Below, in pieces: positions 10,420 to 32,290 of a DNA stretch of 64,000 bases; positions within the stretch are counted from its first letter, which is position 1, and each line of letters starts with the position of its first letter. The stretch comes from an uncultured Collinsella sp. (GTDB taxonomy: Bacteria; Actinomycetota; Coriobacteriia; Coriobacteriales; Coriobacteriaceae): NCBI GenBank assembly GCA_900545165.1, contig UQYA01000002.1, positions 2,543-66,542 on the forward strand, read 5' to 3'. A program made the position numbers and the translations under genes. Below the pieces are notes generated by a model. That model saw nothing but the letters and a program-made list of their open reading frames with translations, made no database searches and was not told the origin of the DNA.

Positions 10420-10445
10420 TTTAATCCGACCGATTGCCAACCAGT

Positions 10446-13203: not shown

Positions 13204-13264
13204 TGTTCTTTAATTCTCTTCTCGCTAAACTTCCTCACACCAAAGATACGACCGACCTAAGCAC

Positions 13265-14491: not shown

Positions 14492-14523
14492 GCTAAGCCC
14501 ACCTTGCTCTTAGTCCTCATCGT

Positions 14524-17616: not shown

Positions 17617-17617
17617 G

Positions 17618-18181: not shown

Positions 18182-18184
18182 TGG

Positions 18185-19387
18185 CTACACCTCCCGCTTT
18201 CCGGTGACGGCCTCGTAAATGAGCGACTGCTTGTATGCTTTGAGGTCGGCGATGATAGCCTGTTTGGCCCCTATCGACTCGGCAATGGAAGCATACAGGT
18301 CATCCAGTTCCGCCACGATACGCTGCTGCACCTCGATAGAAGGCACTGGCACCGCTATGTCAAACAGATCGCTTGTATACAAGCGCCTGAAACCATCCGC
18401 AACACCAGAGATGCGAATTATAAATTCATCAATCACTGCTGCTGTATGGAATACGTACTCAAGATATTTCAGTGAGGTTCTCTCCATATCGATGGCCTGA
18501 TAAACGGCATATTCTGGGCTAATCAAGCCGTTGTAAGGCGACACATACATCACACCGTAATACGCCTTTAGCTTATTGAAGACCAGGTCGCCAGCATGGA
18601 CAATTTTGGCACCAACAAGGCTTGATGTCGGATTCGGTATGGCCAGTTCAATAGAACGAAGCACTCCACGAGCGATCGTAATTGACAGCGGCTCTCCGAT
18701 TCCGTCAGGAGATTTATCCTTAGACTCCTTCAGCACGTATTTGAGTTTCTCCCGCGGCGCTTCGTGCGAAACTCTGGTAATCATCTCTTCCAAACGTGCA
18801 GAGCGATACAGGTTCAGCTCCTCGATAGACCGCTCGGCGGCGAAGACGGCGCGGTCGATCTCGCCGCACCTCTCGTCCAGGAAGTCCGCGATACGGAGCT
18901 GCTCGTCGAGGGGCGGCAGAGGCACCATTTCCGACTTTAGCTCAACAAGTGAAATATTTCTTTGGATTGTGCCGACCCCTCGACTGCACAGTTCAAGCAC
19001 CTGCACAAAAGGACCTCTAAATAGATAATTAGCGAAACGATCATCTATATTGCTTGTGTTTTTCTCGAGAACATAGTAAGCGGGGCTGACTATTCCGCGG
19101 TAAATAGATATCCCAACGGATCCACGCCATGCTTGTTGGTTGTTTAGAACAAAATTGCCCGGACGAACCAGCTGATACTTCAACAAAGATTTGCTTGGCT
19201 TATGCACCTGCACCCCATCAGAGTCCACATAGCGGATAACTCCACGATTCAAGTAGACCGAAAGGAGCTCTTCGCTCTCGCAATTTGTGATGGAGACCTG
19301 TGAGTACAGTCGTTTGAACGGTGCAAAAGTCCATCCCGCGGGCACCTCGCCAAGCCACTCGACGCCGCTGTCCTTCATCTCCCGCAT
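18185..19387 (-). CDS. hsdS: type I R-M specificity subunit S
   Basis: 400 aa with two target-recognition halves. Each half is followed by the conserved spacer helix (PLPPLDEQLRIADFLDE; VPVPSIEVQQRIVAELDD). Confidence 0.85.
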   Translation of the reverse strand: MREMKDSGVEWLGEVPAGWTFAPFKRLYSQVSITNCESEELLSVYLNRGVIRYVDSDGVQVHKPSKSLLKYQLVRPGNFVLNNQQAWRGSVGISIYRGIVSPAYYVLEKNTSNIDDRFANYLFRGPFVQVLELCSRGVGTIQRNISLVELKSEMVPLPPLDEQLRIADFLDERCGEIDRAVFAAERSIEELNLYRSARLEEMITRVSHEAPREKLKYVLKESKDKSPDGIGEPLSITIARGVLRSIELAIPNPTSSLVGAKIVHAGDLVFNKLKAYYGVMYVSPYNGLISPEYAVYQAIDMERTSLKYLEYVFHTAAVIDEFIIRISGVADGFRRLYTSDLFDIAVPVPSIEVQQRIVAELDDLYASIAESIGAKQAIIADLKAYKQSLIYEAVTGKREV

Positions 19388-19389
19388 CG

Positions 19390-21186
19390 CTAACGCACCT
19401 CTCCGAAGAGGGCCTCGAGGCTCTCCTCGAGCGTCTTTTCGTGCTCTAAGATGCGCTTGGCGATCTCATCGGCAGGCTCGAGCTCGGCGTACTTGTAGAA
19501 CACGCGCGTGAACGGGATGGTGTAGCCCACTTTGGTCTTCTTCTTGTCCACCCAGGCGTACTTGTTGTACGGGCGCACCTCGCGCTCGATATAGGCATCG
19601 ATATCCTGCGTGAGCGGGATGTCCTCGGTGTCCTCCTTGGCCTTGTCCGCCTGCATTTTCCCGCGCTTGTTAAGGACGGGACCTCCTTTCTCATCAACGA
19701 CGGGGCTCTCCACGGCCACACGGTTGAAACCGAACTCGACCGTCTCCATTAGGCGCGCCTCGACGGAGACCTCCTGCCCGTTGGAGCCGGTACCCACCCA
19801 GGTGGCATCGCGATACTCGGAGTACGCCTGCACGATGAGGTCGCGACAGGGCTTGGTGATGTCGTTCTTCTTGTCGCCGATGCCCTTGCGGCGTTTCTCG
19901 AAGCACCGAGAGGCGTCGATGAGCAGCACGTGATCACGATGCTCCGGCGCCTTTGCCTTGCTGAAGAGCCACACATAGGTTGCGATGCCGGTGTTGTAGA
20001 ACGAGTCGCAGGGCAGCTGCACGATGGCGTCGAGCCAGTCGTTCTCCAGCACGTAGCGGCGGATGCCGTCCTCGCCGCTGCCGGGTTTGCCTTTGTAGAG
20101 CGGGCTGGCGTCTTGGATGATTGCCATCACACCATCGTCCTTGAGCTTCGACAGCCCGTTGAGCACGAAGAGCATCTGGCCGTCGCCCTTGGCTGGGAGT
20201 TTCTCAACCGGGAAGCGCCCGCCGCCGGCGGTCTTGAACTCCTTCTCCACCGCAGCGGCCTGTGGGTTCCACGGGTCTCCGAACGGAGGGTTGGAGATGC
20301 AGTAGTCGAACTTGAAGCCCTCGAACTTGTCGGCGGACAGGGTATCACCAAAGCGCATGTTAGCGTCGTCCTCACCGCGAATGAGCGCGCTCGCCTTCGC
20401 GATGCCGAAGGTAAACGGGTTGAATTCCTGGCCGTAGCAGGTCACATGAGCATCGGCGTCGAGCTGGCGTAGGCGTTCCTCGGTGCAACCGAGCATCTGC
20501 GAGGTGCCCATGGTCTGATCGTAGACCGTCTTGGTGATGCGATCGCCTTCGAAGACGTGCGAGTCTGCCTGGATGAGCAGGTCGGTCATAAGGTACACGA
20601 TATCGCGGCTCGTAAAGTGGGCGCCAGCATCCTCGTCGTAAGACTCAGAGAAGCGCTGGATGAGATTTTCGAAGATATAGCCCATATCCACCGCACGGAT
20701 CTTATCGGGAGACATATCGGCCTGCGGCTTGCAGAAGTCGCAGATAATCTGGTAGAGCAGCGGGGCATCCGGGTCGGAGAGGCGTTCGATCTGGTCGGCG
20801 AACTTCATGCGCGCCAGGATGTCCTGCACGTTGTCCGAGAACCCGTTGATGTAGTCCTTGAAGTTATCCTCGATGTTCTCCGGGTCGGCCTTAAGTGTCT
20901 CGAAGGTGAACTTAGAGGTGTTGTAAAAGGGGTATCCAGAGGCTTCGCGCAGAAAGCCGTCCTTCACGGCAAGTGTCTTGTATTTCTCGGCAGCGGCGAG
21001 AACAGCATTGTGTGTGGGAGCGAGGCAATCATGAAAGCGCTTGATGACGGTCATAGGAAGGATAACCAGGCCGTACTCATGCGGCTTGTAGGGACCGCGC
21101 AGGGTGTCGGCAGCGCTCCAGATAAGGGATGCCTTCTCCTGAATATTAGCGCCAACGGCCTTGATGAGATCGTCGCTGTCTGCCAT
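19390..21186 (-). CDS. hsdM: type I R-M methyltransferase subunit M (N6-adenine)
   Basis: 598 aa with the NPPFG catalytic motif (ISNPPFGDPW) and an HsdM N-terminal domain (IWSAADTLRG). Confidence 0.9.
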   Translation of the reverse strand: MADSDDLIKAVGANIQEKASLIWSAADTLRGPYKPHEYGLVILPMTVIKRFHDCLAPTHNAVLAAAEKYKTLAVKDGFLREASGYPFYNTSKFTFETLKADPENIEDNFKDYINGFSDNVQDILARMKFADQIERLSDPDAPLLYQIICDFCKPQADMSPDKIRAVDMGYIFENLIQRFSESYDEDAGAHFTSRDIVYLMTDLLIQADSHVFEGDRITKTVYDQTMGTSQMLGCTEERLRQLDADAHVTCYGQEFNPFTFGIAKASALIRGEDDANMRFGDTLSADKFEGFKFDYCISNPPFGDPWNPQAAAVEKEFKTAGGGRFPVEKLPAKGDGQMLFVLNGLSKLKDDGVMAIIQDASPLYKGKPGSGEDGIRRYVLENDWLDAIVQLPCDSFYNTGIATYVWLFSKAKAPEHRDHVLLIDASRCFEKRRKGIGDKKNDITKPCRDLIVQAYSEYRDATWVGTGSNGQEVSVEARLMETVEFGFNRVAVESPVVDEKGGPVLNKRGKMQADKAKEDTEDIPLTQDIDAYIEREVRPYNKYAWVDKKKTKVGYTIPFTRVFYKYAELEPADEIAKRILEHEKTLEESLEALFGEVR

Positions 21187-21188
21187 CG

Positions 21189-21395
21189 TTACTTCTCCTT
21201 CTTGGACAGATACTCGATGAGGCTCGTCTTTACGAGAGACGTGAAGCTAACGCCATTGAGAGCAGCCGCCTCCCTAGCGGCGTCGCGCATGTTCTTGGGA
21301 ATGCGGACGGTTACTGCCACGTTCTCGCCGCCCACGAGGAAGCTTCTGAGCTCGCTCGGGGTTGCTTCTCCGTCGATAAGGTCGGCGTACTTCAT
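21189..21395 (-). CDS. ribbon-helix-helix (CopG-like) small protein leading the hsd operon
   Basis: Trimmed to ATG 21395 (GGAGG upstream); 68 aa. The segment VTVRIPKNMRDAAREAAALNGVSFTSLVKTSLIEYL looks like a beta-strand followed by two helices. Its stop lies 2 nt before the hsdM start. Confidence 0.55.
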   Translation of the reverse strand: MKYADLIDGEATPSELRSFLVGGENVAVTVRIPKNMRDAAREAAALNGVSFTSLVKTSLIEYLSKKEK

Positions 21396-21699
21396 GGGAA
21401 CCTCCGCGATTGCATGATGCAATACAAATGCGCCTTTGATTCTAGCAAAGGACTGAAAACTAATAACCGTCTAGCACAGATGGATAGACAAGTAATTAAC
21501 GCAAATAAGAAGGGAGAATAACATTCTGAACCGTCGTCTCTCCCGCCTGAAGGAGCTCGACGAGAACTAGTCGGCAACTCAAAAAGACACCGAGCAAGCC
21601 GCTAACACACTTATCACGTTCCACAAAGAGATGGGTAAGCATGACGCCAGCTTGGGCGAGGGCGCTAATGGCATAGAATTGCAGCCAGACTGCCTGAAC

Positions 21700-24063
21700 C
21701 TATTCATCACTTGTTGCCGGCAAGCTGTTGGGCGGCTCGCTCTCACCGGCGGCACCAAGGTGCTTCTGTATCTTCTCGATTCGCTTAAGGGTTGAAGTCA
21801 AATACCCAAGACCCCTCTTCAACTGCTTAAGCAACCTGCTATCCCTGCGGTCCCCCTTTCCATTCTCCTTCTCGACATCTTCCTCAACACCAGCGATGCT
21901 ACGCTGCACGGCCTCGGCCGCCTTCCGCACCAAAATGGCCCCTTCATGCGGACAGCGGTCAGTTGCCACATCAAGAAAAGCAAGGAGCCTGGAACATTCG
22001 ACGAGCACGAATTGCGCGTAGTTCTCCCCCATCGATGCCGCCAAGGCAACGCCGCCGGAACCCAATAGACCAAGCGCGGCGCCGCCGCCCGTAATCAAAG
22101 CAGTGCCACCGGCCATGCCCATGCCGCCGGCGGCCAAGGCCCCACCGCCAGCTGCAGCAAGGCTCGCATTGACAAGCGCAGCCCCGTGAAGGCCGACAAA
22201 CGAGCCCCCGAAGATACCGACAGCAATATCCGGAGCGAGTACCGCGGCCGCCCCTCCTGCGCCTACGGCCGACGCCACGACAATGACGCCGCCCACCAAA
22301 AGCTTTGGCAATGTACCTGAAAGCTCGCGGAAGCGTGTCCCGCAACGTTTCTCGAGAGAACGTATGGCGTCCAAATCAACCGCGTCTTGTCTCCTGGGAA
22401 ATTCGTGTTTAACCCAAGATTCACTCTCCTTCAAACCTTTGTATTCCTTCTTCTCTTCATCTCCCATCTGGGAATAGGGGCGAAACTCAACCAACTCCTG
22501 TGCAACAAGCAAGGCACGCACTTTACCTCCTCGCCGCCGCGAAACTGTCTCAAGGGCTCCGTACGCATCTTCCTCGCTCAAAAAGTAGCCGTCTGCATCA
22601 ATGCCTAGGCCATCCGCGACCGAATCCTGCCACGCGCGGGCCCAGCTCCTCTTTTGCCCTTTGCGCACTTCGTTCTTCTCGTTCCCGCAGTCGTAGTTGA
22701 TGGCGGCAAGCTTCAGCGAGAAGGCAATCCTCGTCGTTTCTCTATCTAGGCTATAAAAGTGAAATCCATCGAAGATATCCTGGCGGCGCCTGGCGCGCTC
22801 AGTCCAAGCCTCGGACATTTCCTCCGCCATATAGCCCCAGTCGGCATGGAGGGCAAACGCAAGGCGTCCAACTCCAACGTAGTTTATTCGCAAGAAGAGC
22901 TTCTGGGCGAACACGACCTTGTTCCCCTCGCATTCGATACCCGCCCTGACCGCCGCCGTCGCTAGATTCGCCAAAACGAACGAAGTGCTCGAAACCGTGA
23001 CCATGCGGGCGAGAGCTCTGCTGTTGTAGGGCATAAAATGCGAAGCCTTGAGCTTGTGCAAGCCGGAAACCTTGCTCACTTCGCAACGTTCTAGCTCGGC
23101 CTTGAGCCTTGAAAGCATGTAGAGACAACGAACGATAACCTCGTTGGCCACGACTGCTGGCACCTGGCTTAAAGCTTGGTTGAGAAGGCCGACTTCCGTC
23201 CGAAGGTCGAAACGAATGGGCTTGCCGTCCTCGGTTTTGAACGCCGTTCCGTTAAACAGCTTTGAGATCCATTGCTGAATGCGAATATCCTCGCCCTTAT
23301 AGGCAATCTGCATGTCTTGAAAAACAGGCAGGGAGGAGAGCTCCTTTAGCAGGGACAGCACGACGCCGGGAATGCCCGTCCCCTTACCGGGGTTTGAACT
23401 AGACCCCGCCATGTCGCTCACGAGATGCATCGCCCAGAACAGAGTGCCAAACGCGATCTTCTCTGGAACGTTCCTGCCTATAAGAGGGCAGTCGGGATCG
23501 AAGGCGGCGGCAGGCAGGTCAAAGGCGACAAACCGGCCGGCTGTATCGGTACCATAGCCTTTGCCCGTGAATTGCGAGAGGATCGAACACGCAAGGCCAA
23601 CCAAACTCGGGTGGTGCGAGAAATCCCGCAGATGATGTTGGAGCCCGCCGCCAAACTCGGCAGCCAGCTTGTCCGCGGCAAGAGGAAACTCTTTCTCTAG
23701 AAAGCGAATAGCGTCTTCTAGAGTTGCATCCGCCTTTGCCATACCCGCAGACTTGGCAATCGTAAGAACGAATTTGCCAACCTTCTCGTCGCCCCACTCT
23801 TTGGCACCCTCTAGGTTGAAGTCTTTCTGCCAAAGGATATTCAACGCGCCCGTGAGGAGCCCGCTAACGGCTGCAAGTTCATAGTCGAGCTTCGTAGCCT
23901 TTTCAGCCCGAGGGTCAAAATCAAAGAGGACCTCCTCCCCATCGGGAGCGTCCTTAAAACCGACCAGTACGGCGCTACCGTTCAGCGGCGCAGATGTAAC
24001 TTTGGGCAGTTGAGACATGGTGTAGACTATCTCGCCACCACTAAAAACAAGTTCGTCTGCCAT
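21700..24063 (-). CDS. large uncharacterised protein with C-terminal Gly/Ala-rich (glycine-zipper-like) membrane region
   Basis: Track ORF 21700..24225 (GTG start). I prefer ATG 24063 because AGGAGG lies 8 nt upstream, giving 787 aa. A ~95-aa G/A-rich hydrophobic block (about nt 22025-22320) is followed by a charged helical tail. No NTPase or nuclease motif was seen. Confidence 0.6.
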   Translation of the reverse strand: MADELVFSGGEIVYTMSQLPKVTSAPLNGSAVLVGFKDAPDGEEVLFDFDPRAEKATKLDYELAAVSGLLTGALNILWQKDFNLEGAKEWGDEKVGKFVLTIAKSAGMAKADATLEDAIRFLEKEFPLAADKLAAEFGGGLQHHLRDFSHHPSLVGLACSILSQFTGKGYGTDTAGRFVAFDLPAAAFDPDCPLIGRNVPEKIAFGTLFWAMHLVSDMAGSSSNPGKGTGIPGVVLSLLKELSSLPVFQDMQIAYKGEDIRIQQWISKLFNGTAFKTEDGKPIRFDLRTEVGLLNQALSQVPAVVANEVIVRCLYMLSRLKAELERCEVSKVSGLHKLKASHFMPYNSRALARMVTVSSTSFVLANLATAAVRAGIECEGNKVVFAQKLFLRINYVGVGRLAFALHADWGYMAEEMSEAWTERARRRQDIFDGFHFYSLDRETTRIAFSLKLAAINYDCGNEKNEVRKGQKRSWARAWQDSVADGLGIDADGYFLSEEDAYGALETVSRRRGGKVRALLVAQELVEFRPYSQMGDEEKKEYKGLKESESWVKHEFPRRQDAVDLDAIRSLEKRCGTRFRELSGTLPKLLVGGVIVVASAVGAGGAAAVLAPDIAVGIFGGSFVGLHGAALVNASLAAAGGGALAAGGMGMAGGTALITGGGAALGLLGSGGVALAASMGENYAQFVLVECSRLLAFLDVATDRCPHEGAILVRKAAEAVQRSIAGVEEDVEKENGKGDRRDSRLLKQLKRGLGYLTSTLKRIEKIQKHLGAAGESEPPNSLPATSDE

Positions 24064-24158
24064 ACCGGCTTCCTCCTGCAAACGCGTAAAATCAGATTGC
24101 TCTACGCCGCCAAATCCCTCTTCGTAGAAGTATTCGAAAATCTCGGTGATGCAGTTGC

Positions 24159-24434
24159 TCAGAACCTCGTCGGGATAGTTCGCCACTGGCAGCCTATACA
24201 CCTCATTGTGCACGATAACGCACACAGCGTCACGGGTCTCTGCCTATCCGTCCAGCGAATCATGTTAGCAAGCCGCTCTTCGATAATGGAAGCCATTTCG
24301 ATGTCCACGCTCTTGACCTGCTTGGTCTCGGCGGGCGTCAGCGTGTCCTTGAATAGCATCTCAAGCACAGCCCTCTGATGCTGATTCTGGAATCCTTCCC
24401 GCAACCATTCCTTCTGCTTGCGCCCAATGGGCAC
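24159..24434 (-). CDS. small hypothetical protein (91 aa) between the exonuclease and the large protein
   Basis: GTG 24434 with GAGGGGAGG 8 nt upstream, inside the end of the exonuclease gene (4-nt gap). The C-terminal tail is Cys-rich (CALSCTMRCIGC). The last 67 nt overlap the long version of the next ORF. Confidence 0.4.
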   Translation of the reverse strand: MPIGRKQKEWLREGFQNQHQRAVLEMLFKDTLTPAETKQVKSVDIEMASIIEERLANMIRWTDRQRPVTLCALSCTMRCIGCQWRTIPTRF

Positions 24435-24438
24435 CCGC

Positions 24439-25173
24439 CTACCTCCCCTCCGCTTTCAGCTTCAGCAGTAAATCGCCCAGCTCGGGGCACTTGCTGGAAA
24501 GGCGCGTCTGGGCTCGCTCGCCTATCCCCCATCGTTGGCGGATCTCCTGGGCGTGCGGACTCACGTGATAGTCCCCCTCCATCATCTGCTTGAGCAGCTT
24601 GGCGGTCACGCGCGCATCGGCTAGGGCACTGTGGGCGTAGCCCGTCGACTCATCAAACTCGATGCCAAACCACGCCGCCGCGTCACTCAAAGAGACGCAC
24701 CCGTGGCTGCCCACGTCCATGATCGAGGTGTAAAACGCCTGCAGGTCGGCCCAGTCCGTAGGAAATGCGGAAAGGTCGATGTGTTTTGCCTGGCACTCAG
24801 TCAAAAGCTGTCGACGGTCCGTCCCGCTCCAGCAAACTATCTGGGCGGAGTAGCGACCGATCCAATCGCTGAGCCTTTTGATCACCATGTAGAGCGGATC
24901 GGCCATCGCGGTGTCCACAGCCGATATCCCTGTAAGCTCGCGGACGGGGAACACAACGCCTTCGGTAAATTCCGTCTGCACAAACTGCGAAAACTCGCCC
25001 ATAACGTTGCCGTGGTAATCGAGTTTGACGGCGCCGACCTCGATAATCTCATGGCGCAGTCCACGGCGCTGGCGCTGCTTTGGCACCGGCGCAAACTCAA
25101 AGTCCAGCACAATCTGGCGCGCAAAGTTCGTCGTATCGATAGCCGAGATGCACGGCGTCTTTTCAGCTGACAC
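24439..25173 (-). CDS. DEDDh-type 3'-5' exonuclease (ERI-1/KapD-like)
   Basis: 244 aa. Exo I is VLDFEF, Exo II is CWSGTDRRQL and Exo III is HSALADARV. It is the first gene of a three-gene operon. Confidence 0.8.
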   Translation of the reverse strand: MSAEKTPCISAIDTTNFARQIVLDFEFAPVPKQRQRRGLRHEIIEVGAVKLDYHGNVMGEFSQFVQTEFTEGVVFPVRELTGISAVDTAMADPLYMVIKRLSDWIGRYSAQIVCWSGTDRRQLLTECQAKHIDLSAFPTDWADLQAFYTSIMDVGSHGCVSLSDAAAWFGIEFDESTGYAHSALADARVTAKLLKQMMEGDYHVSPHAQEIRQRWGIGERAQTRLSSKCPELGDLLLKLKAEGR

Positions 25174-25635
25174 GGTTAGGGCCTTTCTCCGTCAACTGCC
25201 GCTTGTTACATAAGCGACTACATTGCCGTAAGGATAGGCGCCCGTGCGGACACAAAAGCGGGGCGCAACGCCATGCGCCGGTCGCACGCCATGCAGACCG
25301 CCCCAAGAGAGTCGCCCGCTCTATTCAAATACATGAAAAAGATTTAGGCCCGGTGACTTGAATCAGCGGTCATCCCGAGCCCATCAATATGCAGTGTACC
25401 TACAGAGGGCTGGTTAATCAAACGGGCTTTCGGTGACGAAGACCTGCGCGTCTATCCCCAATCGCCCAGCGTCGTCTTCTGCCGCCCTTACGAAAGGCTG
25501 CTATTCGAGGGAATCACGTTGCTGTTATTATCGAACATATATTCGTATTTATGACCGCGCTTTGATAGAATGGCAGTTGTTGACGGCAGTTCCATGTGCC
25601 GGGCAGCGCCCTCCATGCGACGGGAGGTGATGCCC

Positions 25636-25761
25636 ATGACCGATCTGATTGATTTCGTGAAGCTCCTGACCGCTTCGGTCTCGCTCCTCACGGCGCTTAT
25701 CGGACTTACCGAGGCACTCAAGCAGCGTACGAAGCAGAAAAAGAGGGGTCGACGCCTCTAA
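25636..25761 (+). CDS. 41-aa hydrophobic peptide with Lys/Arg tail (holin-like / type I toxin-like architecture)
   Basis: MTDLIDFVKLLTASVSLLTALIGLTEALKQRTKQKKRGRRL. GGGAGG lies 8 nt before ATG 25636. An extended -10-like TGATAGAAT sits at about 25560-25568. Confidence 0.4.
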   Translation: MTDLIDFVKLLTASVSLLTALIGLTEALKQRTKQKKRGRRL

Positions 25762-25919
25762 GGCATTGACCCCTTAATCGAAGTAACGGCGCTGCCCAGC
25801 TATCACCCTTGGGCTGCCGTCGACCTTATTCTACCCACGGGTGCCAGGTTTAACAAATGGATTTTCGGTTACGAAGTCCGGAGCTCGCCCCTCTACTCCA
25901 GCGGCGTTGCGCCGGATTC

Positions 25920-26018
25920 TGGGACGTGCTTTCCGCTCCAGGCCTCTACCGGAAAATGCGTTCCACTCTGAGGCCGAAATCTGGGACGCGCTTTCCGCCA
26001 AAGGGAAAGCGCGTCCCA
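25920..26018. repeat. ~62-bp dyad tandem repeat, array A (~1.6 units)
   Basis: TGGGACgtgcTTTCCG (25920) and CCGGAAAatgcGTTCCA (25949). TGGGACGCGCTTTCC-gccaaag-GGAAAGCGCGTCCCA (25982-26018) is a perfect 15-bp hairpin. The array shares an identical 24-mer (25963-25986) with array B (27702-27725). Confidence 0.8.
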
Positions 26019-26047
26019 TTCCGAGCATCACATCAGAGCGCGCTTGG

Positions 26048-27439
26048 TTATCTCCGCTCGCACATCTCGGCAAACGAAATCAGCTTGGCATCTCCCCTAC
26101 TCTCCGCGGCATCCCGACATCCCTGCGTAAAGCCGCTTTTTGAGAAAAGCGCATAGCTTTTATGCTGCCGCCTAAAAAGCTCGCTTCGGTACACGAGCTT
26201 TTCCAGAACATCCTCGCCTACCGGTTCATTGCGCCATTTGCACTCCGCAAACAGCGCAGCGCCCTCGCCATCGTCAACAATCAAGTCGATTTCTTCCTGC
26301 GTATGCGTGCGATTATCCGTCCCCCACCAGCGCCCAACGCTTGCCGGAACCACATCGAGCTGGCCCGCGCGTGCGAGTTCGTACACGTATTGCCTGCATA
26401 TAAGCTCAAAGACCGTGCCCATGTAATCCGATACGTGCGGCTCAATGCGCTCATACGCCATCTCGGCCATATCGTTTTGAATCAGCCCGATGTTCTGCGG
26501 AACAAACTTGTACCAGAACCTAAACATCTGATCGCTCAGCAGATACACGGCTCGCTTATTGCTCGTCTCGTTTAGGGGCAGCTCGCGCTCGACAATCCCA
26601 AGCGACGCCAGCTTATCCACATAGCTCTTTACGTTGCTCGCAGGGATTCCCGTAGAGCTCGCAATCTCCGAGATCTTCGAGCGCCCCTGAGCAATTGCTT
26701 GCACGATCGCATCATATTGCTCGGGATTGCGGCACTCTTGCAATAGCAGGTTACTCGGCTCTTCAAAGAGATAACCCGTAGGGGTAAGAAAAAGACGCTT
26801 GATGTTGTCCTTGAGCGATACGGTAGGATCGACTTTCTCGATATATGCAGGAATGCCGCCCATCATGCCATAGCAAACCGCAGCGTCTTCGCGACCCATG
26901 CTCTGCCACAGGCCGAGGGTCGTCGTAAAATCGAGCGGCATGATCTTAAACTGGGCCGTACGCCTACCGTATAGTGGACTCTCGTAGCTCAACACCTGCT
27001 CTTCCATGAACGAAAGCGACGACCCGCACAGGATAAGCATGAGCTTGGTCTCTTTGTACAGGTGATCGATCTTATCTTGCAGCAACGAGCTGATCTCGGG
27101 ATTCGATTGGGCGAGATAGGGATACTCGTCAATCACGACAATCAAACGTTCCGCGCGAGCCATGGTGGCCAATGCATCGAACGCCTCGTCAAAACTACGA
27201 AACGACACGCCAGCAACACCAACGGAGCCCGCAAGTATCGCCTGGCTAAAGCCATGCAGGTTTGCCTCTGCATTGGTACGACGAGCTTGAAAGTAAATAG
27301 CCTTCTTGCCTTGGATGAACTCTGTGATAAGACGCGTTTTGCCCACGCGACGGCGGCCGTAAATCACAGGCATCTCAAAGGAGCCCGTGCCATACAGTCG
27401 ATTGAGCTCGGACATTTCCGCTGTTCTTCCGATAAACAT
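26048..27439 (-). CDS. AAA-type ATPase with DUF234-like C-terminus (Arch_ATPase family)
   Basis: 463 aa. Walker A is GRRRVGKT and Walker B-like is LIVVIDEYPY. There is a wHTH-like middle segment. The C-terminus EIDLIVDDGEG..LFAECKW resembles a PD-(D/E)xK motif. Confidence 0.8.
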   Translation of the reverse strand: MFIGRTAEMSELNRLYGTGSFEMPVIYGRRRVGKTRLITEFIQGKKAIYFQARRTNAEANLHGFSQAILAGSVGVAGVSFRSFDEAFDALATMARAERLIVVIDEYPYLAQSNPEISSLLQDKIDHLYKETKLMLILCGSSLSFMEEQVLSYESPLYGRRTAQFKIMPLDFTTTLGLWQSMGREDAAVCYGMMGGIPAYIEKVDPTVSLKDNIKRLFLTPTGYLFEEPSNLLLQECRNPEQYDAIVQAIAQGRSKISEIASSTGIPASNVKSYVDKLASLGIVERELPLNETSNKRAVYLLSDQMFRFWYKFVPQNIGLIQNDMAEMAYERIEPHVSDYMGTVFELICRQYVYELARAGQLDVVPASVGRWWGTDNRTHTQEEIDLIVDDGEGAALFAECKWRNEPVGEDVLEKLVYRSELFRRQHKSYALFSKSGFTQGCRDAAESRGDAKLISFAEMCERR

Positions 27440-27456
27440 AGGGCCATCCTTCCTTT

Positions 27457-27508
27457 ACGTTATAGCTAGCTATATTATATCTTCCTATAATATAGCTAGC
27501 TATAACGT
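27457..27508. promoter_or_regulatory. 23-bp perfect inverted repeat (6-bp spacer) immediately upstream of the ATPase gene
   Basis: ACGTTATAGCTAGCTATATTATA-tcttcc-TATAATATAGCTAGCTATAACGT. It lies 18 nt upstream of the start codon at 27439 and contains TATAAT on both strands. Confidence 0.5.
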
Positions 27509-27563
27509 AATTCGACAAGCGGCGCACGCAAAAGGGTCGGTACACCACCGCACGTGGACCGTT

Positions 27564-27798
27564 CCGGAAAATGTATCCCGTTCTGGAGCCAAAAACTGGG
27601 CCGTAGTTTCCGCCAAGCATGCCATCCGGAAAGTGCGTCCCACCCCGAGGCTCGATTCCGGGACGCAGTTTCCGTTTGAGGCCCGATCTGGAAACGGCAT
27701 CCCACTCTGAGGCCGAAATCTGGGATGTAGTTTCCGCTTGAAGGGCGATCCGGAAAGCACGTCCCATTCCGAGTGGCAATTCCGGGTCACAGTTTCCG
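27564..27798. repeat. ~62-bp dyad tandem repeat, array B (~3.8 units)
   Basis: CCGGAAA-N5-TCCC elements at 27564, 27626, 27688 and 27749 alternate with GGGAC-N4-TTTCCG elements at 27597, 27659, 27720 and 27783. Confidence 0.85.
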
Positions 27799-28093
27799 CA
27801 GACACAGACGACGACCTGCAGCCCTTATCACATGCCTTCAAATATACGATCCAGAGACACAAAACAGCAGATAGAATGCTCTTTTTCAAAAAAGTACACG
27901 TCCCGATACTTACCCAGTCTTCATAACTCGCTACCGTTCAAGGTCGCCGATTACCGCCCACCGATTCAGCTTCAAAAAATGACGTCAAAACCAGGCCATC
28001 TACCTGCATGGTTAGATTTTGGTCAGCTTTTGGTCAGCTGAGCGGCAAGTTCCAGTTGATACGTTTTTGCTACCCAAAAGGAGGCGGTAGCTC

Positions 28094-29092
28094 ATGACCC
28101 ATTGCAATGACCAACTCATCGACCAGCTGTTGAACCAAGCCGAACAAGAGGGGCGCTGTCTGATTCCCCCGAGCGCGGCGATCCGAAAAGCGCTCCTTCG
28201 GCGCACCGGCGGCACGGTTGTCTCGCCCATGCCGGGGTTGTTTGCGCGAAAAACGCGCTGGGATGAACTCAACCGAGCGCAACGCCATTGCGAGACTATC
28301 CGCGCCCTTGCGATCATCCATCCCGATTGGACGTTCTGCTCGTTTTCGGCAGCTTGCCTGCTGGGGCTCGAGGTCTCGTGGCGACACCTGAACGTCGTGC
28401 ATGTTTGCAGCTCGATAAAGCCGTCGGCTCGTCCGGGCGCACATATTCAGCAACACCAGATCGAGCCGGCCGGAGCAATACGCAGAGCCGGCATATCGGT
28501 AACGCCGCCCATCCAAACGGCCACAGATTGCCTGCTGCAAACTGGTTTTGCCGACGGCATGCCCATTGCCGATTCGGCGATCTCAAAGCTCGGCCTTACG
28601 CGAGAGCAGTTGATGGAGGCCGTCGAGCAACGAGCGACCGCCCGCAATGGTCGCGCGATTCGCACCGCCCTCACCACGCTTCGATATGCCGACGCCCGCG
28701 CCGAGAGCGGCGGGGAATCGGTCGCCCGAGCCGTCATGATCGAGACGGGCTTTGCGCCCGACTGGCTTCAATACGAGCTGACGGACCCCTTCGATTCGGC
28801 CAAGCCCATACGAACGGACTTTGCCTGGGAGCGCCAGGCGCGGGAACTCACGCTGGGCGAGCTCGACGGGCTCATCAAATATACCGACCAGACCATGCTG
28901 GCCGGACGCACCACCGCCGAGGCGCTCGTTGCCGAACGACAGCGCGAGGCGCACCTATCGCTCTACGGCCACCCTCTGCTGCGCTTTACCATGAACGAGG
29001 TCCGCTCGGCAGGAATGCTCGCCAAAAAGCTGCAGACGGCAGGCATCCGACAGACCGCTCTACCGACATGGCTCAACGAGGTGGACCTGTAG
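28094..29092 (+). CDS. hypothetical protein: AbiEi-like N-terminus plus DUF559/Vsr-like endonuclease-fold C-terminus
   Basis: 332 aa. AAAGGAGG lies upstream of ATG 28094. The N-terminus has ..SPMPGLFARK.. and ..CSFSAACLLGLEV. The C-terminus (ESGGESVARAVMIETGF..., PIRTDFAW, GELDGLIKY) fits the DUF559 pattern as I remember it. Confidence 0.55.
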   Translation: MTHCNDQLIDQLLNQAEQEGRCLIPPSAAIRKALLRRTGGTVVSPMPGLFARKTRWDELNRAQRHCETIRALAIIHPDWTFCSFSAACLLGLEVSWRHLNVVHVCSSIKPSARPGAHIQQHQIEPAGAIRRAGISVTPPIQTATDCLLQTGFADGMPIADSAISKLGLTREQLMEAVEQRATARNGRAIRTALTTLRYADARAESGGESVARAVMIETGFAPDWLQYELTDPFDSAKPIRTDFAWERQARELTLGELDGLIKYTDQTMLAGRTTAEALVAERQREAHLSLYGHPLLRFTMNEVRSAGMLAKKLQTAGIRQTALPTWLNEVDL

Positions 29093-29127
29093 GAGCTGTT
29101 GAGCTTATGCCCGTCTGCTTGGCAAAG

Positions 29128-29391
29128 CGGGACACACTTTCCGGTTGGCAGCACCCGCGGAAACCAGGGCCCAGATTGAGTGTTCAAAACGGGGTGCGCT
29201 TTCCATATGGCATGCCTAGCGGAAACCGTGTCCCGGAATCAAGGCCTAGAACGGGACAGACTTTCCGGTTGAAGCGCCCAGCGGAAACTGCATCCCGGAA
29301 TAGACGCTCAAACTGGGACGCAGTTTCCGGTTTCCTGCTGTTCCGGAAAGTACGTCCCATTCTGAGCGCCAAATCCGGGACACAGTTTCCG
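29128..29391. repeat. ~62-bp dyad tandem repeat, array C (~4.3 units)
   Basis: GGGAC-N4-TTTCCG elements at 29128, 29190, 29252, 29314 and 29376 alternate with CGGAAA-N5-TCCC elements at 29157, 29219, 29281 and 29343. Orientation is the same as arrays A and B. Confidence 0.85.
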
Positions 29392-29406
29392 CATGCGGAG
29401 GCGCTC

Positions 29407-29442
29407 CAAACAAAAGGCCCCGGCTCGCGATGGGGCTGGGGC
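29407..29442 (-). terminator. probable rho-independent terminator of the xdhD operon
   Basis: On the minus strand: GGCCCCAGC-(9 nt)-GCCGGGGCC followed by TTTTGTTTG. It lies ~70 nt after the xdhD stop. Confidence 0.5.
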
Positions 29443-29512
29443 CAAAGGTGCAGCGTATGTAGTTGATGTTCAGCGCGAACAGCCCGTCAGCAACGGCCGT
29501 GCGCGCCCTACC

Positions 29513-32290
29513 CTACCCGCGGTGACGGGCGCGGCTGTAGGGCGTATCCACCATGGGCAGATCTGGACGCAGCTTACCGTCAAACGCGCGGTAGGCATTC
29601 TGCACGGCGGGCGCCGTGGGGATCGTTGCGATCTCGCCGATGCCCTTGCCGCCGTATGCCACGGGCAACAGCTCGTCCTTCTCCACGTAGATGGCGTGGA
29701 TATTCGGAATCTCGGGCGCGCGGAACAGCCCGAGGGTGCCGTACCTGGCCTGGGGCACGCAGTCCTTGAGCGGCCAATCCTCGGTAAGCGCATAGCCCAT
29801 ACCCATGAGCACGCCGCCTTCGATCTGACCCTGGATGGAGATGGGGTTGACCACCTTGCCGGAATCGTGTGCGGCATAGACCTCGCTCACGCGGCCGTCA
29901 TCATCCAGAATGACCACATGCGTGGCAAACCCGTAGCAGATGTGGCTCTTGGGGTTGGGAACGTCGGCGCCCAGCTTGTCGGTCGGCTCCAGGTACACGT
30001 AGCCAAACTCGCATCCCTCGAGCGCCTTGATGGCAGCCGCGGGATCCTGAGGATGCATACCCTGGTCGGCGACGAGCTCCTGCGTGCGCAGCTGATAGGC
30101 GCGACCGTCGTCGTACTCGATCTTGACGCCGTCGCCGTGGGCGCTCACCGGGCCAGTAGGCGCAGGCTTGCCGGCCTCGACGTCAAGCATGGCATCGCGC
30201 AGCAAGAAGGCGGCACCGCGCACAGCCTCGCCGGTCACGACCGTCTGACGCGAGCCAGACGTGGTGCCGGAGTCGGGAGCGTTCTCGGTGGAGCACTCGC
30301 CGTTGGCAATGCAGCTCAGCGGTAGACCGCAGGCCTCGGCAACGTCCTGCAAAAAGACGGTGTTGCAGCCCTGGCCGATGTCGGACGTGGCGGCGTAGAC
30401 CACGGCGCGGCCATCCTCGATGCGGATCTTGCAGCGGCCGGCATCGGGCAGGCCCACGCCCACGCCGGCGTTCTTCATGGCGCAGGCGATACCGGCGTGT
30501 CCGGGATGCGCGTAGTAGGCATCCTTGACCTCGAGCAGCGTCTCTTTAAGCGCCGTGGAGCAATCGGCAATCTGGCCGTTGGGCAGAACCTCGCCCGGCT
30601 CGATGGCGTTGCGGTAGCGAATCTCCCACGGATCCAGGCCGACCTTCTCTGCCAGCAGGTCGATCAGGCTCTCGAGCGCAAACTCGGACTGGCAGACGCC
30701 AAAGCCGCGGTACGCGCCGGCGGGCGGGTTGTTGGTGTAGTAGCCAAAGCCGCGAATGTCGGTGTTCTGGTACTTGTAGGGGCCGACGGCATGCGTACAG
30801 GCGCGCTCGAGCACCGGGCCGCACAGCGACGCGTAGGCGCCGGTATCAAAGTTGATCTCGCAATCCAGGCCGGTAAAGTTGCCCTCGGCGTCGCAGCCCA
30901 GCGTAAAGGTGCCGTCCATGGCGTGGCGCTTGGGATGGAACGCGAGCGACTCGGCGCGCGTGAGCTTGCACTTCACAGGACGCTGGAACTTATATGCGGC
31001 GAGCGCGGCCAGGTGCTGGATGGACACGTCCTCCTTGCCGCCAAAGCCGCCGCCCACGAGCATGGTCTCGACGACCACGCGCTCGGGCTCGTTATCCCAG
31101 CCAAACATGTGGGCGCACTCTTTGCGCGTATCGTAAGTGCCCTGGTCGGTCGATTGCACCTTGACGCCGTTCTTGTACGGGAAGGCGACGGCGCACTCGG
31201 GCTCCAAGAAGGCATGCTCGGTAAAGGGCGTGGTAAAGCGCTGCGTCACGGTGAACGCGCTCTCCGCCAGCGCCTTGGCGGCGTCGCCGCGCGTCACGTG
31301 ACGGCTCTGGCACACGTTGTCCTTGAGCTCCACCGTGTTGCCAAAGGCAAAGAAACTGTCATGCAGGCGCGGCGCGTCGGCGGCCTTGGCCTCGGCGATG
31401 TTGCGCACGGGCTCCAGAGGCTCGTAATCGATCTTTACGAGCTTCTTGGCCTTCTCGAGCGTCGCCTCGTCCTCGGCAACCACCAGCACGATGGCATCAC
31501 CCACGCAGCGGGTGATATCGCCCTGGGCGATCATGACGTCCCAGTCCTGGATAAGGTGACCGACCTGGTTGACCGGCACGTCCTCGGCGCGCAGGATGCC
31601 CACCACGCCGGGCAGGGCCTCGGCCTTGGAGGTATCGATGGAGAGCACGCGGGCGCGCGGATACTTGGAGCGCACGGCGCTGGCGTAGGTCAGACCCGGC
31701 TGATCGAGCTCGTCGATGTCGTCGGGATACTTGCCCTCGCCGAGCACCTTCTTGCGCACGTCGATACGGAAGGCGCGCTTGCCCACGCCGTAGTCGTCGC
31801 CGCGCTCCAAGCCCTCGTCAATCTGCTTTTCGCCGCGGAGCACCGCAGCGGCCAGCGAAATGCCCTCAATAATCTTCTTGTAGCCGGTGCAACGGCAGAC
31901 ATTGCCGCGAATGGCGTACTTAATCTGCTCCTCGGTGGGCTCGGGGTCCTCGGCGATGAGCGCCGCACCCGCCATGACCATACCGGGGATGCAAAAGCCG
32001 CACTGTACGGCGCCCACGGCGCCAAAGGCGTACACAAAGGCCTCGCGCACGTCCTCGGGCAGGCCCTCGACGGTCACGATGTTGCGGCCGGCGGCAAGAG
32101 CGGTGGTCAGCACGCAGGCCTTGACGGCCGCACCGTCCACGTGGATGGTGCAGGTACCGCAGGCGCCCTCGGAGCATCCGTCCTTGGCGGAATGGATATG
32201 CAGGTCGTCGCGCAGGTAGCGCAGTAGCGGTTTATTTTGGGTCATCGTGCGCTCGATGCCGTTAACGGTAAAAGTGAATTCCTGTGCCAT
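29513..32290 (-). CDS. xdhD: XdhD-type molybdopterin hydroxylase with fused N-terminal 2Fe-2S domains
   Basis: 925 aa. N-terminus DGCSEGACGTCTIHVDG and CGFCIPG/CRCTGY are the two 2Fe-2S motifs of xanthine-dehydrogenase-family proteins. They are followed by an aldehyde-oxidase/XDH Mo-binding body. Confidence 0.85.
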   Translation of the reverse strand: MAQEFTFTVNGIERTMTQNKPLLRYLRDDLHIHSAKDGCSEGACGTCTIHVDGAAVKACVLTTALAAGRNIVTVEGLPEDVREAFVYAFGAVGAVQCGFCIPGMVMAGAALIAEDPEPTEEQIKYAIRGNVCRCTGYKKIIEGISLAAAVLRGEKQIDEGLERGDDYGVGKRAFRIDVRKKVLGEGKYPDDIDELDQPGLTYASAVRSKYPRARVLSIDTSKAEALPGVVGILRAEDVPVNQVGHLIQDWDVMIAQGDITRCVGDAIVLVVAEDEATLEKAKKLVKIDYEPLEPVRNIAEAKAADAPRLHDSFFAFGNTVELKDNVCQSRHVTRGDAAKALAESAFTVTQRFTTPFTEHAFLEPECAVAFPYKNGVKVQSTDQGTYDTRKECAHMFGWDNEPERVVVETMLVGGGFGGKEDVSIQHLAALAAYKFQRPVKCKLTRAESLAFHPKRHAMDGTFTLGCDAEGNFTGLDCEINFDTGAYASLCGPVLERACTHAVGPYKYQNTDIRGFGYYTNNPPAGAYRGFGVCQSEFALESLIDLLAEKVGLDPWEIRYRNAIEPGEVLPNGQIADCSTALKETLLEVKDAYYAHPGHAGIACAMKNAGVGVGLPDAGRCKIRIEDGRAVVYAATSDIGQGCNTVFLQDVAEACGLPLSCIANGECSTENAPDSGTTSGSRQTVVTGEAVRGAAFLLRDAMLDVEAGKPAPTGPVSAHGDGVKIEYDDGRAYQLRTQELVADQGMHPQDPAAAIKALEGCEFGYVYLEPTDKLGADVPNPKSHICYGFATHVVILDDDGRVSEVYAAHDSGKVVNPISIQGQIEGGVLMGMGYALTEDWPLKDCVPQARYGTLGLFRAPEIPNIHAIYVEKDELLPVAYGGKGIGEIATIPTAPAVQNAYRAFDGKLRPDLPMVDTPYSRARHRG

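What the first reader, a model, noticed from the sequence alone, without database searches (positions are those of the whole stretch)
25920..29391. Three same-orientation arrays of a ~62-bp dyad repeat bracket the DUF234 ATPase gene and the AbiEi/DUF559-like gene
- **Repeat unit:** each unit alternates GGGAC-N4-TTTCCG with its inverted partner CGGAAA-N5-GTCCC, at a ~62-bp period.
- **Arrays:** array A (25920-26018), array B (27564-27798) and array C (29128-29391) hold about 1.6, 3.8 and 4.3 units.
- **Conservation:** units are only ~70% alike, yet the two half-sites are kept. Arrays A and B share an identical 24-mer, CCACTCTGAGGCCGAAATCTGGGA.
- **Extent:** together the arrays fill essentially all the non-coding DNA around two cassette-like genes at the right edge of the island. 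Array C ends just before the xdhD terminator.
- **Possible roles:** the conserved, phased half-sites look more like reiterated protein-binding sites or structured-RNA units than simple satellite DNA. Candidates are binding sites for the wHTH of the ATPase or the AbiEi-like protein. They could also be recombination substrates that shuffle cassettes.
Basis: seen in the sequence. Interest (0 to 1): 0.7.

Follow-up and report, generated by a model that had tools for sequence, protein, structure and literature searches.

The report
Collinsella-wide intergenic dyad-repeat arrays
The three repeat arrays are real, but they are local copies of a 62-bp palindrome-like repeat scattered through the intergenic DNA of Collinsella genomes (a REP/BIME- or MIRU-like family), not control sites made for the two genes they flank.

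Summary
The repeat is real. GGGAC-N4-TTTCCG (≤1 mismatch) occurs 19 times in the window against 1.15 expected, and every hit lies in the three arrays. The spacing is rigid: 29 and 33 bp, giving a 62-bp period.

Two claims need correcting. Array C is not same-orientation: it reads − − − +. The arrays cover 11%, 38% and 64% of their intergenic regions, not essentially all.

The element is a Collinsella-wide interspersed repeat. A capped scan returned 120 loci, all Collinsella or Coriobacteriaceae. They hold 143 arrays of 1–9 units, 137 of them intergenic, at about 25 or more chromosomal sites. These sites lie beside unrelated genes such as dnaK, asd, ArsC, patatin, CLC and Cas2.

ATPase homologues in other taxa lack the repeat but keep the AT-rich palindrome upstream of the gene. 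That palindrome is the likelier operator.

The stem shows no covariation, so a structured RNA is not supported. The blocks GGGA and TTTCC are 95–100% invariant, while the five bases between them vary freely. This points to sequence-specific recognition by an unknown factor.

Orthologous arrays change copy number in register. Three gene gain, loss or replacement events at this locus have breakpoints inside arrays. Genus-wide, synteny is not broken more often at arrays.

Verdict: a new member of a known kind, of modest interest.

The parts
25921..26018 (+). Array A. One full 62-bp unit (25943-26004, + polarity) plus a leading half-site (25921-25935). A terminal perfect 15-bp inverted repeat with a 7-nt spacer lies at 25982-26018. 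The array sits 30 nt downstream of the ATPase stop codon.
   Evidence: (I17). The hairpin folds to -32.7 kcal/mol, z=-5.0. Orthologous arrays hold 0-5 units.
27558..27805 (+). Array B. Four 62-bp units, all + polarity. Half-sites are at 27565, 27598, 27627, 27660, 27689 (2 mismatches), 27722, 27751 and 27784. It lies in the divergent region between the ATPase and the 332-aa gene.
   Evidence: Orthologues hold 1-6 units and differ by in-register insertions and deletions.
29129..29398 (.). Array C. A leading half-site at 29129, then units at 29151 (−, degenerate), 29213 (−), 29275 (−) and 29337 (+). It lies in the convergent region between the 332-aa gene and the xdh-like gene.
   Evidence: (I1-I6). 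The polarity switch at 29275-29398 folds as one long hairpin: -68.8 kcal/mol on the + strand and -84.5 on the − strand.
26048..27439 (-). ATPase_2 + DUF234 + wHTH ATPase (PADLOC candidate defence protein PDC-S27). It is a neighbour of the arrays, not part of the repeat system.
   Evidence: Homologues elsewhere lack the arrays.
28094..29092 (+). Gene for a 332-aa protein of unknown family, with only a weak AbiEi-like match. It is a neighbour of the arrays. It is absent from three orthologous loci, where a single two-unit array remains.
27455..27510 (.). Perfect 25-bp inverted repeat (TTACGTTATAGCTAGCTATATTATA, 6-nt spacer) that overlaps a promoter-like site for the ATPase. It is the likelier operator of the ATPase gene and is separate from the 62-bp repeat.
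   Evidence: (I7). Conserved in 13 orthologues. Similar AT-rich 15-bp-period elements lie upstream of three distant homologues, L124-L126.
29407..29444 (-). Intrinsic-terminator-like hairpin followed by UUUUGUUU, serving the xdh-like gene. It lies between that gene and array C.
   Evidence: first sequence; sequence read.

Best explanation
The three arrays are local instances of a Collinsella-specific family of interspersed intergenic repeats. The family is built like the REP/BIME elements of enterobacteria and behaves like mycobacterial MIRU minisatellites.

**Unit structure.** The 62-bp unit holds two inverted 15-bp blocks, each reading GGGA-YRYRS-TTTCC(G). An 18-bp segment with its own conserved motif (TCTGAG ... 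ATTCY) separates them and gives the unit a polarity. A 14-bp linker joins one unit to the next.

**Shown.**
- The family occurs at many unrelated intergenic sites across the genus.
- Arrays grow and shrink by whole units in register, as expected from replication slippage or unequal recombination.
- The units supply homology at which neighbouring genes have been lost, gained or replaced at this locus.

**Inferred.**
- The GGGA and TTTCC blocks are almost invariant, while the bases between them vary independently on the two arms. The constraint is therefore sequence-specific recognition of the blocks by an unidentified trans-acting factor. That factor could be the agent that spreads the repeat or a host DNA-binding protein. 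The constraint is not maintenance of an RNA or DNA hairpin.
- When transcribed, individual units can still fold into stable hairpins. These could incidentally affect 3'-end stability or termination.
- The arrays are not cis-elements dedicated to the DUF234 ATPase or the 332-aa protein.
For: **Distribution**
All are Collinsella or Coriobacteriaceae.
- A scan of 2.9 million viral contigs gave one hit, which is host flank next to a tmRNA gene.
- The 120 loci hold 775 half-sites. Spacing is 29 bp in 206 of 233 F→R pairs and 33 bp in 292 of 297 R→F pairs.
- They contain 422 units in 143 arrays of 1-9 units with 62-bp spacing. 137 of 143 arrays are intergenic.
- There are 46 combinations of flanking gene families. 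Pfam-identified flanks include Hsp70/DnaK, Asd, ArsC, patatin, a CLC channel, GH5 and Cas2; an rpoB-like flank was recognised by eye from the sequence.

**Constraint**
- In 379 half-site slots defined only by their neighbours, GGG is 95-100% conserved, A 89% and TTTCC 98-100%. The five inner positions are 50-70% conserved.
- Watson-Crick pairs at the variable stem positions do not exceed the number expected under independence.
- The formal pair count equals the shuffled control.

**Copy-number change and rearrangement**
- Orthologous arrays hold 0-5 (A), 1-6 (B) and 3-9 (C) units. The differences are in register.
- The 332-aa gene is absent in L087, L092 and L119, where a hybrid two-unit array remains.
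- The ATPase is replaced by a SIMPL gene in L082.
- Array A is replaced by a DUF4143 ATPase gene in five genomes, with the breakpoint inside the first half-site.

**Independence from the ATPase**
- ATPase homologues elsewhere lack the repeat.
Against: - No trans-acting protein or mobilising enzyme was identified. No RAYT-like ORF lies within the 855 kb around the arrays.
- The mechanism of dispersal to new sites is unknown. No empty site or target-site duplication was seen.
- The invariance of the blocks could partly reflect gene conversion or recent amplification rather than selection.
- A role in transcripts cannot be excluded without expression data. Unit polarity relative to the nearest gene is only weakly biased: 19:12 gene families downstream and 11:5 upstream.
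Confidence: 0.72

Rival explanations
1. The arrays are phased operator arrays bound by the wHTH of the adjacent DUF234 ATPase, or by the AbiEi-like 332-aa protein, to regulate these two genes.
For: - The arrays bracket both genes, and the ATPase has a wHTH domain.
- The half-sites are conserved and regularly spaced.
Against: - The same repeat flanks unrelated housekeeping genes at about 25 or more other sites.
- Five ATPase homologues at 49-67% identity have no such units or arrays. Three of them keep an AT-rich palindrome directly upstream of the gene.
- That palindrome disappears together with the ATPase in L082, while the array remains.
- Arrays persist at the locus in three genomes that lack the 332-aa gene there.
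Confidence: 0.04
2. Each unit is a structured RNA element, either a cis-regulatory hairpin or a small RNA, selected for its fold.
For: - Single units fold to between -19 and -33 kcal/mol, with z-scores down to -5.
- The polarity switch in array C folds to -69 and -85 kcal/mol on the two strands.
Against: - There is no covariation: 84.4% of cells are paired against 84.9% in shuffles, and the covariation score is 0.116 against 0.121.
- Watson-Crick pairs are at or below expectation. At the position next to the CGGAAA/TTTCCG arms (unit columns 14/49) they are depleted, 84 observed against 127 expected.
- RNAalifold predicts no consensus hairpin.
- No Rfam family matches, including Collinsella-1 (RF01700).
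- Units occur in both polarities, both upstream and downstream of genes.
Confidence: 0.06
3. The arrays act mainly at the RNA level, as REP-like 3'-end stabilisers or U-tract-less, bidirectional terminators between genes.
For: - Convergent intergenic regions are over-represented: 46 of 119 arrays with both flanks known, against about 25% expected.
- Arrays often start within 0-70 nt of a stop codon.
- The hairpins are stable, and the polarity switch forms a very long hairpin in the convergent region C.
- The 332-aa gene has no other terminator-like site before array C.
Against: - Twenty-nine arrays lie in divergent regions upstream of both neighbours, including array B.
- The xdh-like gene has its own canonical terminator before it reaches array C.
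- No U-tract follows the units.
- There is no selection for pairing.
- Many of the counts come from orthologous copies of a few loci.
Confidence: 0.15
4. The units are non-autonomous mobile elements (MITE or REPIN type), spread by a dedicated transposase such as a RAYT. The invariant blocks are its recognition sites.
For: - The family is dispersed and genus-restricted.
- Each unit has terminal inverted 15-bp blocks with invariant cores.
- Single-unit loci exist, 25 of 143 arrays.
Against: - No RAYT-like ORF was found in 8050 six-frame segments of all 120 loci plus the window: phmmer gave nothing at E≤10 and the best tblastn hit had E=1.1.
- There is no GTAG motif, and no target-site duplication or empty site was seen.
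- The fixed 14-bp linker and the in-register copy-number changes indicate tandem amplification, not repeated insertion.
Confidence: 0.12

Closest known systems
REP / BIME elements of Escherichia coli and other enterobacteria (especially BIME-2)
   Same: - Both are short dyad elements confined to intergenic DNA.
- Both form clusters in which blocks alternate in orientation and are joined by two alternating linker types of fixed length.
- Both vary in the number of units per cluster.
- Both are frequent at gene 3' ends and in convergent regions.
   Different: - The repeated block here is a 15-bp sequence that is not itself a stem-loop. A REP is a palindromic unit of about 35 bp.
- There is no GTAG motif.
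- No RAYT gene was found near any array.
- There appear to be tens of sites rather than hundreds.
- The host is a different phylum (Actinomycetota, Coriobacteriia).
MIRU (mycobacterial interspersed repetitive units) and similar bacterial minisatellite/VNTR loci
   Same: - Both are tandem arrays of 40-100-bp units at a few dozen dispersed intergenic loci of an actinobacterial genome.
- In both, the unit number differs between strains or species by whole units.
   Different: - MIRUs are direct repeats without a strong internal dyad.
- Many MIRUs carry short ORFs coupled to the flanking genes. A 62-bp unit is not a multiple of 3.
- Here the unit has two inverted blocks and can occur in either polarity within one array.
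- The MIRU properties listed here are from general knowledge.
REPIN-RAYT systems (Pseudomonas, E. coli)
   Same: - Both have two inverted short repeats separated by a spacer as the repeating module.
- Both have near-invariant recognition-like cores and are lineage-restricted.
   Different: - The defining partner gene (a RAYT, a Y1 HUH transposase flanked by the repeats) was searched for and not found.
- Units here are arranged as head-to-tail arrays with a rigid 62-bp period.
Integron attC sites / gene-cassette boundaries
   Same: - Both are imperfect palindromic sites lying between individually variable genes.
- At this locus, breakpoints of gene gain and loss fall within them.
   Different: - No integrase lies in the window or in the orthologous loci (ORF and family results).
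- The flanked genes have their own promoters and lie in mixed orientations.
- The repeats also occur beside core housekeeping genes.
- There is no genus-wide excess of synteny breaks at arrays.

Membership tests
REP/REPIN-RAYT | Short imperfect palindromic repeat confined to intergenic regions and dispersed over the chromosome | tested here: met
   137 of 143 arrays are intergenic. There are 46 combinations of flanking gene families across the genus.
REP/REPIN-RAYT | A RAYT (Y1 HUH transposase) gene flanked by the repeats | tested here: not met
   E. coli RayT was compared with 8050 six-frame segments from 120 loci plus the window. phmmer gave nothing at E≤10 and the best tblastn hit had E=1.1. 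Limits: a single-sequence query, and only 855 kb around the arrays.
REP/REPIN-RAYT | Conserved GTAG tetranucleotide at the 5' end of the palindrome | tested here: not met
   The unit consensus CCGGAAAGTGCGTCCCATTCTGAG...ATTCCGGGACGCAGTTTCCG has no conserved GTAG.
BIME (clustered REPs) | Blocks in alternating orientation joined by alternating linkers of fixed type and length, in variable number | tested here: met
   F→R spacing is 29 bp (206/233) and R→F is 33 bp (292/297). Arrays hold 1-9 units.
BIME (clustered REPs) | Each repeated block is itself a stem-loop-forming palindromic unit of about 35 bp | tested here: not met
   The 15-bp block GGGAYRYRSTTTCCG is not self-complementary. The dyad forms only between neighbouring blocks.
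BIME (clustered REPs) | Binding of IHF, DNA gyrase or Pol I | not testable with these tools
   Needs biochemistry.
MIRU-type minisatellite (VNTR) | Tandem 40-100-bp units at multiple dispersed intergenic loci, with whole-unit copy-number differences between genomes | tested here: met
   Array A has 0-5 units, B 1-6 and C 3-9 in about 20 orthologous loci. Insertions and deletions are in register.
MIRU-type minisatellite (VNTR) | Unit length compatible with a reading frame, or short ORFs coupled to the flanking genes | tested here: not met
   The period is 62 bp, sometimes 61, which is not a multiple of 3.
Structured RNA family | Base pairs maintained by compensatory changes | tested here: not met
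   Paired cells are 84.4% against 84.9% in shuffles (451/500 at least as high). The covariation score is 0.116 against 0.121. RNAalifold gives no hairpin. There is no Rfam match.
Operator array of the neighbouring DUF234 ATPase | Co-occurrence of the sites with the regulator gene across genomes | tested here: not met
   Five homologues at 49-67% identity lack the units (best PWM score -31 or lower). The repeat occurs at many loci without the gene.
Integron-like cassette array | An adjacent tyrosine-recombinase integrase and promoterless, co-oriented cassettes | tested here: not met
   No integrase was found among the window genes scanned. The two genes are divergent and have their own upstream conserved elements.
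MITE | Terminal inverted repeats plus a target-site duplication, with insertion polymorphism | tested here: inconclusive
   Inverted 15-bp blocks are present. No empty site or duplication was seen in the loci available.
Intrinsic terminator | GC-rich hairpin followed directly by a U-tract | tested here: not met
   No array unit appears among the terminator-like sites. The units are followed by GCTTGAGG-type linkers.

The most novel reading that the evidence does not exclude
The near-invariant GGGA-N5-TTTCC blocks, repeated at a rigid 62-bp period (about six helical turns), may be loading sites for an as yet unknown Collinsella DNA-binding or recombination protein. That protein would assemble along the arrays and promote in-register recombination. 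The arrays would then be active boundary or exchange sites for gene cassettes, as seen at this defence-island edge, rather than passive repeats.
Probability: 0.15. Interest if true: 0.55.

Novelty: new member of a known kind. Interest (0 to 1): 0.3.

Why it matters
- **Annotation.** It removes a tempting but wrong reading, that the arrays are a regulatory or defence-specific cis-element of the DUF234 ATPase and the AbiEi-like gene. It replaces it with a genus-wide repeat family that genome annotators should mask or label in Collinsella, a common human-gut genus.
- **Strain typing.** The arrays are copy-number-variable, so they are ready-made VNTR markers for Collinsella strains.
- **Assembly and HGT calls.** They are a likely cause of assembly breaks and of spurious or real rearrangement calls.
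- **Open question.** The combination of invariant blocks, no covariation and no RAYT poses a small, well-defined problem: what recognises GGGA-N5-TTTCC in Coriobacteriia?

Tried and rejected
- **Rfam.** At gathering thresholds only a SAM riboswitch at 7883-7973 was found. With permissive E-values on 25500-29800, only generic miRNA-hairpin models matched. Collinsella-1 (RF01700) did not.
- **Hairpin covariation.** It was tested within units (R-18-F) and across the linker (F-14-R). Neither shows any.
- **Polarity versus transcription.** A rule that transcripts read one sense looked promising in the raw counts. After collapsing to independent gene families it falls to 19:12 and 11:5. Polarity-switch patterns are about evenly split between − + and + − types. 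Rejected as unproven.
- **Arrays as boundaries of variable segments genus-wide.** Top-neighbour conservation is 0.81 at array junctions and 0.85 at junctions without arrays, Mann-Whitney p=0.36. Rejected as a general claim.
- **Helical phasing of conserved columns.** The 10.33-bp harmonic is high, but so are the 31-bp and 15.5-bp harmonics, which simply reflect the dyad. Inconclusive.
- **RAYT search.** Negative.
- **Viral origin.** The single viral-contig hit is host flank next to a tmRNA gene.
- **Literature.** Five searches found no description of this repeat.
- **Identity of the 332-aa protein.** No Pfam or NCBIfam hit, and only a weak PADLOC AbiEi match.

Full report

Yes. GGGACN4TTTCCG with at most one mismatch occurs 19 times on the two strands of the 64-kb window. 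Shuffles give 1.15±1.01, and none of 100 reaches 19. Every hit lies in 25921-26017, 27565-27798 or 29129-29391.

Forward (F) and reverse (R) copies alternate. F→R spacing is 29 bp and R→F spacing is 33 bp, giving the 62-bp period that Tandem Repeats Finder also reports at 27624-27799. The shared 24-mer is present exactly twice, at 25963 and 27702. The nine units are 53-79% alike, mean 63%.

Three statements in the finding need correction.

- **Orientation.** The 18 bp between an R and the following F carry a conserved asymmetric motif (A/G-n-TCTGAG ... ATTCY), which gives each 62-bp unit a polarity. By that polarity A is +, B is ++++ and C is −−−+. This agrees with the long inverted matches between B and C and within C (I1-I6). 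The arrays are therefore not all in the same orientation.
- **Coverage.** The arrays occupy 11%, 38% and 64% of their intergenic regions, not essentially all.
- **The 28094-29092 protein.** Its label 'AbiEi/DUF559-like' rests on one weak PADLOC match (E=0.009). Pfam and NCBIfam give nothing.

**2. What is it?**

All are from Collinsella or unnamed Coriobacteriaceae, and most come from different assemblies. The 2.9 million viral contigs gave one hit. It is host DNA next to a tmRNA gene at a prophage junction.

- **Geometry.** In these 855 kb there are 775 half-sites. F→R is 29 bp in 206 of 233 pairs, and R→F is 33 bp in 292 of 297.
- **Arrays.** A position-weight scan finds 422 units in 143 arrays of 1-9 units. 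Spacing is 62 bp (sometimes 61) whatever the polarity. The best score in shuffled sequence is -33, against a threshold of +25.
- **Polarity.** Most arrays have a single polarity. About a third switch polarity once.
- **Location.** 137 of 143 arrays lie between predicted genes: 46 in convergent, 29 in divergent and 44 in tandem contexts.
- **Neighbours.** The flanking genes fall into 46 family combinations. Pfam-identified flanks include Hsp70/DnaK, aspartate-semialdehyde dehydrogenase, ArsC, a patatin-like lipase, a CLC channel, a GH5 glycosidase, a GyrI-like protein and Cas2. An rpoB-like flank was recognised by eye from its sequence. Some arrays lie next to tRNA or tmRNA genes.

The repeat is therefore a genus-wide interspersed intergenic family with no specific gene partner.

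**3. Is it tied to the two flanking genes?**

No. The ATPase belongs to a very large family: more than 8000 proteins at E≤1e-20. It matches the PADLOC candidate defence protein PDC-S27. Five homologues at 49-67% identity were fetched with 3-kb flanks. Two come from contigs with about 60% G+C and three from contigs with 44-48% G+C.

- None of the five has Collinsella-type units: the best PWM score is -31 or lower.
- None has any array with a period near 62 bp.
- Three of them (L124-L126) share with the window an AT-rich, 15-bp-period TATAATATA-type palindrome directly upstream of the start codon.

In the window that element is the perfect 25-bp inverted repeat at 27455-27510 (I7). It overlaps a promoter-like site and is conserved in all 13 orthologues. 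It disappears together with the ATPase gene in L082, while the array stays. It is the better candidate for the ATPase's own operator.

**4. RNA structure or DNA sequence?**

Individual units can fold well, at -19 to -33 kcal/mol. The − + junction in array C folds into a 124-nt hairpin of -69 kcal/mol on the + strand and -85 on the − strand. Evolution has not maintained the pairing, however.

- At the variable stem positions, Watson-Crick pairs do not exceed the number expected if the two arms vary independently. This holds within the unit and across the linker.
- On 140 distinct units, 84.4% of cells are paired against 84.9% in shuffles. 451 of 500 shuffles do as well. The covariation score is 0.116 against 0.121.
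- RNAalifold returns no consensus hairpin.
- At the position next to the CGGAAA/TTTCCG arms (unit columns 14 and 49) the two arms tend to carry the same base on one strand, giving G·G or C·C. Watson-Crick pairs there number 84 against 127 expected. The arms are not even designed to be complementary at that position.

By contrast, the blocks themselves are strongly constrained. In 379 half-site slots defined only by their neighbours, GGG is 95-100% conserved, A is 89% and TTTCC is 98-100%. The five bases in between are 50-70% conserved and vary mostly by transitions.

Strong constraint on sequence with none on pairing points to recognition of the blocks as sequence. That reading is an inference, and no factor has been identified.

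Two further tests gave no clear answer.

- Helical phasing of the conserved columns is inconclusive.
- The bias of unit polarity relative to the nearest gene is weak: 19:12 and 11:5 independent gene families.

**5. Dynamics at this locus**

About 20 of the 120 loci are orthologues of the window's region. The common order is: DEDDh exonuclease – A – ATPase – B – 332-aa gene – C – xdh-like gene.

- **Copy number.** A has 0-5 units, B has 1-6, and C has 1-6 − units followed by 1-6 + units. In B the flanks and the first and last units are conserved. Differences are deletions or insertions of whole units in register. In L030 and L104 a single hybrid unit is left.
- **Loss or gain of the 332-aa gene.** L087, L092 and L119 lack this gene. 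They carry one two-unit + array that joins B's first unit to the xdh terminator region.
- **Replacement of the ATPase.** In L082 the segment holding array A, the ATPase and the palindrome is replaced by a SIMPL/DUF541 gene. The right-hand breakpoint is in array B.
- **Replacement of array A.** In L021, L031, L035, L092 and L118 a DUF4143/AAA_14 ATPase gene with its own upstream short repeats replaces array A. The sequences diverge inside the first half-site (GGGTCGCGCT|AAGG).

The arrays thus mark recombination breakpoints here.

Across all loci the picture does not generalise. Gene junctions that carry arrays are not more variable than nearby junctions without arrays: top-neighbour frequency is 0.81 against 0.85, p=0.36.

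**6. Comparison with known systems**

- **REP/BIME.** The architecture is that of REP/BIME clusters: inverted blocks, two alternating fixed linkers, a variable number of units, and an intergenic location.
- **MIRU.** The behaviour is that of actinobacterial MIRU-type minisatellites: whole-unit copy-number polymorphism at a few dozen dispersed loci.
- **Membership fails for each.** The block is not itself a palindromic unit. There is no GTAG motif. No RAYT-like ORF lies anywhere in the 855 kb around the arrays. A 62-bp period is not compatible with coupled short ORFs.
- **Other candidates.** It is not an Rfam family. It is not integron-like, because no integrase was found and the genes have their own promoters. 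It is not viral.
- **Literature.** Five searches found no description of it.

**7. Verdict**

The gene-specific interpretation is wrong, the RNA interpretation is unsupported, and the recombination idea is right locally. This is an apparently undescribed, genus-specific member of the well-known class of bacterial interspersed intergenic dyad repeats.

It has practical value for annotation, strain typing and assembly. It also leaves one open question: what recognises the invariant blocks, and how the family spreads without a RAYT.

Noticed in passing
window 27455-27510: A perfect 25-bp inverted repeat (TTACGTTATAGCTAGCTATATTATA, 6-nt spacer, 15-bp internal period) lies just upstream of the ATPase start and overlaps a promoter-like site. 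It is conserved in 13 orthologues. Similar AT-rich elements precede three homologues at 63-67% identity in other genomes (L124-L126). It is probably the ATPase operator/promoter.
   Followed up: partly
window 28009-28039: A tandem TGGTCAGCTTT (2.8 copies) lies about 55 nt upstream of the 332-aa gene. It is nearly invariant in 13 orthologous loci and may be that gene's regulatory site.
   Followed up: no
window 8427-25173: A low-G+C stretch (0.47-0.59) looks like a defence island. It holds AbiEii toxin (8427-9260) with an upstream 175-aa ORF (9257-9784), two DUF4230 proteins, and a radical-SAM protein. It also holds type I R-M hsdR/S/M (14524-21186), a BnzB-like 841-aa protein (21700-24225) and a DEDDh exonuclease (24439-25173). 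No integrase was found.
   Followed up: partly
L092 2811-3013 (also L021, L031, L035, L118): Four copies of a motif of about 18 bp (ATGGCGTAAAAACTACAT) lie upstream of a DUF4143/AAA_14 ATPase gene. In these genomes that gene occupies the place of array A.
   Followed up: no
window 29275-29398: At the − + polarity switch of array C, two whole units form a 124-nt near-perfect hairpin (-68.8 and -84.5 kcal/mol on the two strands, z about -8 and -10). It lies midway between two convergent genes.
   Followed up: partly
unit columns 14 and 49 (e.g. window 27633/27668): The base next to the CGGAAA/TTTCCG arms is S (G or C). It tends to be the same base on one strand in both arms, so a G·G or C·C mismatch is favoured. 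Watson-Crick pairs number 84 against 127 expected. The reason is unexplained.
   Followed up: partly
L062 1265-1628 and 1980-2227; L121 5077-5609: One array lies about 350 bp downstream of the tmRNA gene. The only 'viral' contig carrying the repeat joins phage-like DNA to this host flank at the tmRNA 3' end, which looks like a prophage attachment site.
   Followed up: partly
window 7883-7973 (+): A SAM riboswitch (RF00162, 45.1 bits) is the only Rfam match in the window at gathering threshold.
   Followed up: no
L014, L015, L086, L120: In some genomes one single-unit locus lies 160-340 bp from a cas2 gene. In other genomes the same site is flanked by a CLC channel or a GyrI-like gene instead, so gene content is variable on one side of that unit.
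   Followed up: no
literature (PMC7771070): A deep-learning study of HGT insertion sites lists Collinsella among its top genera and reports learned palindromic patterns. Whether those calls fall on this repeat family was not checked.
   Followed up: no
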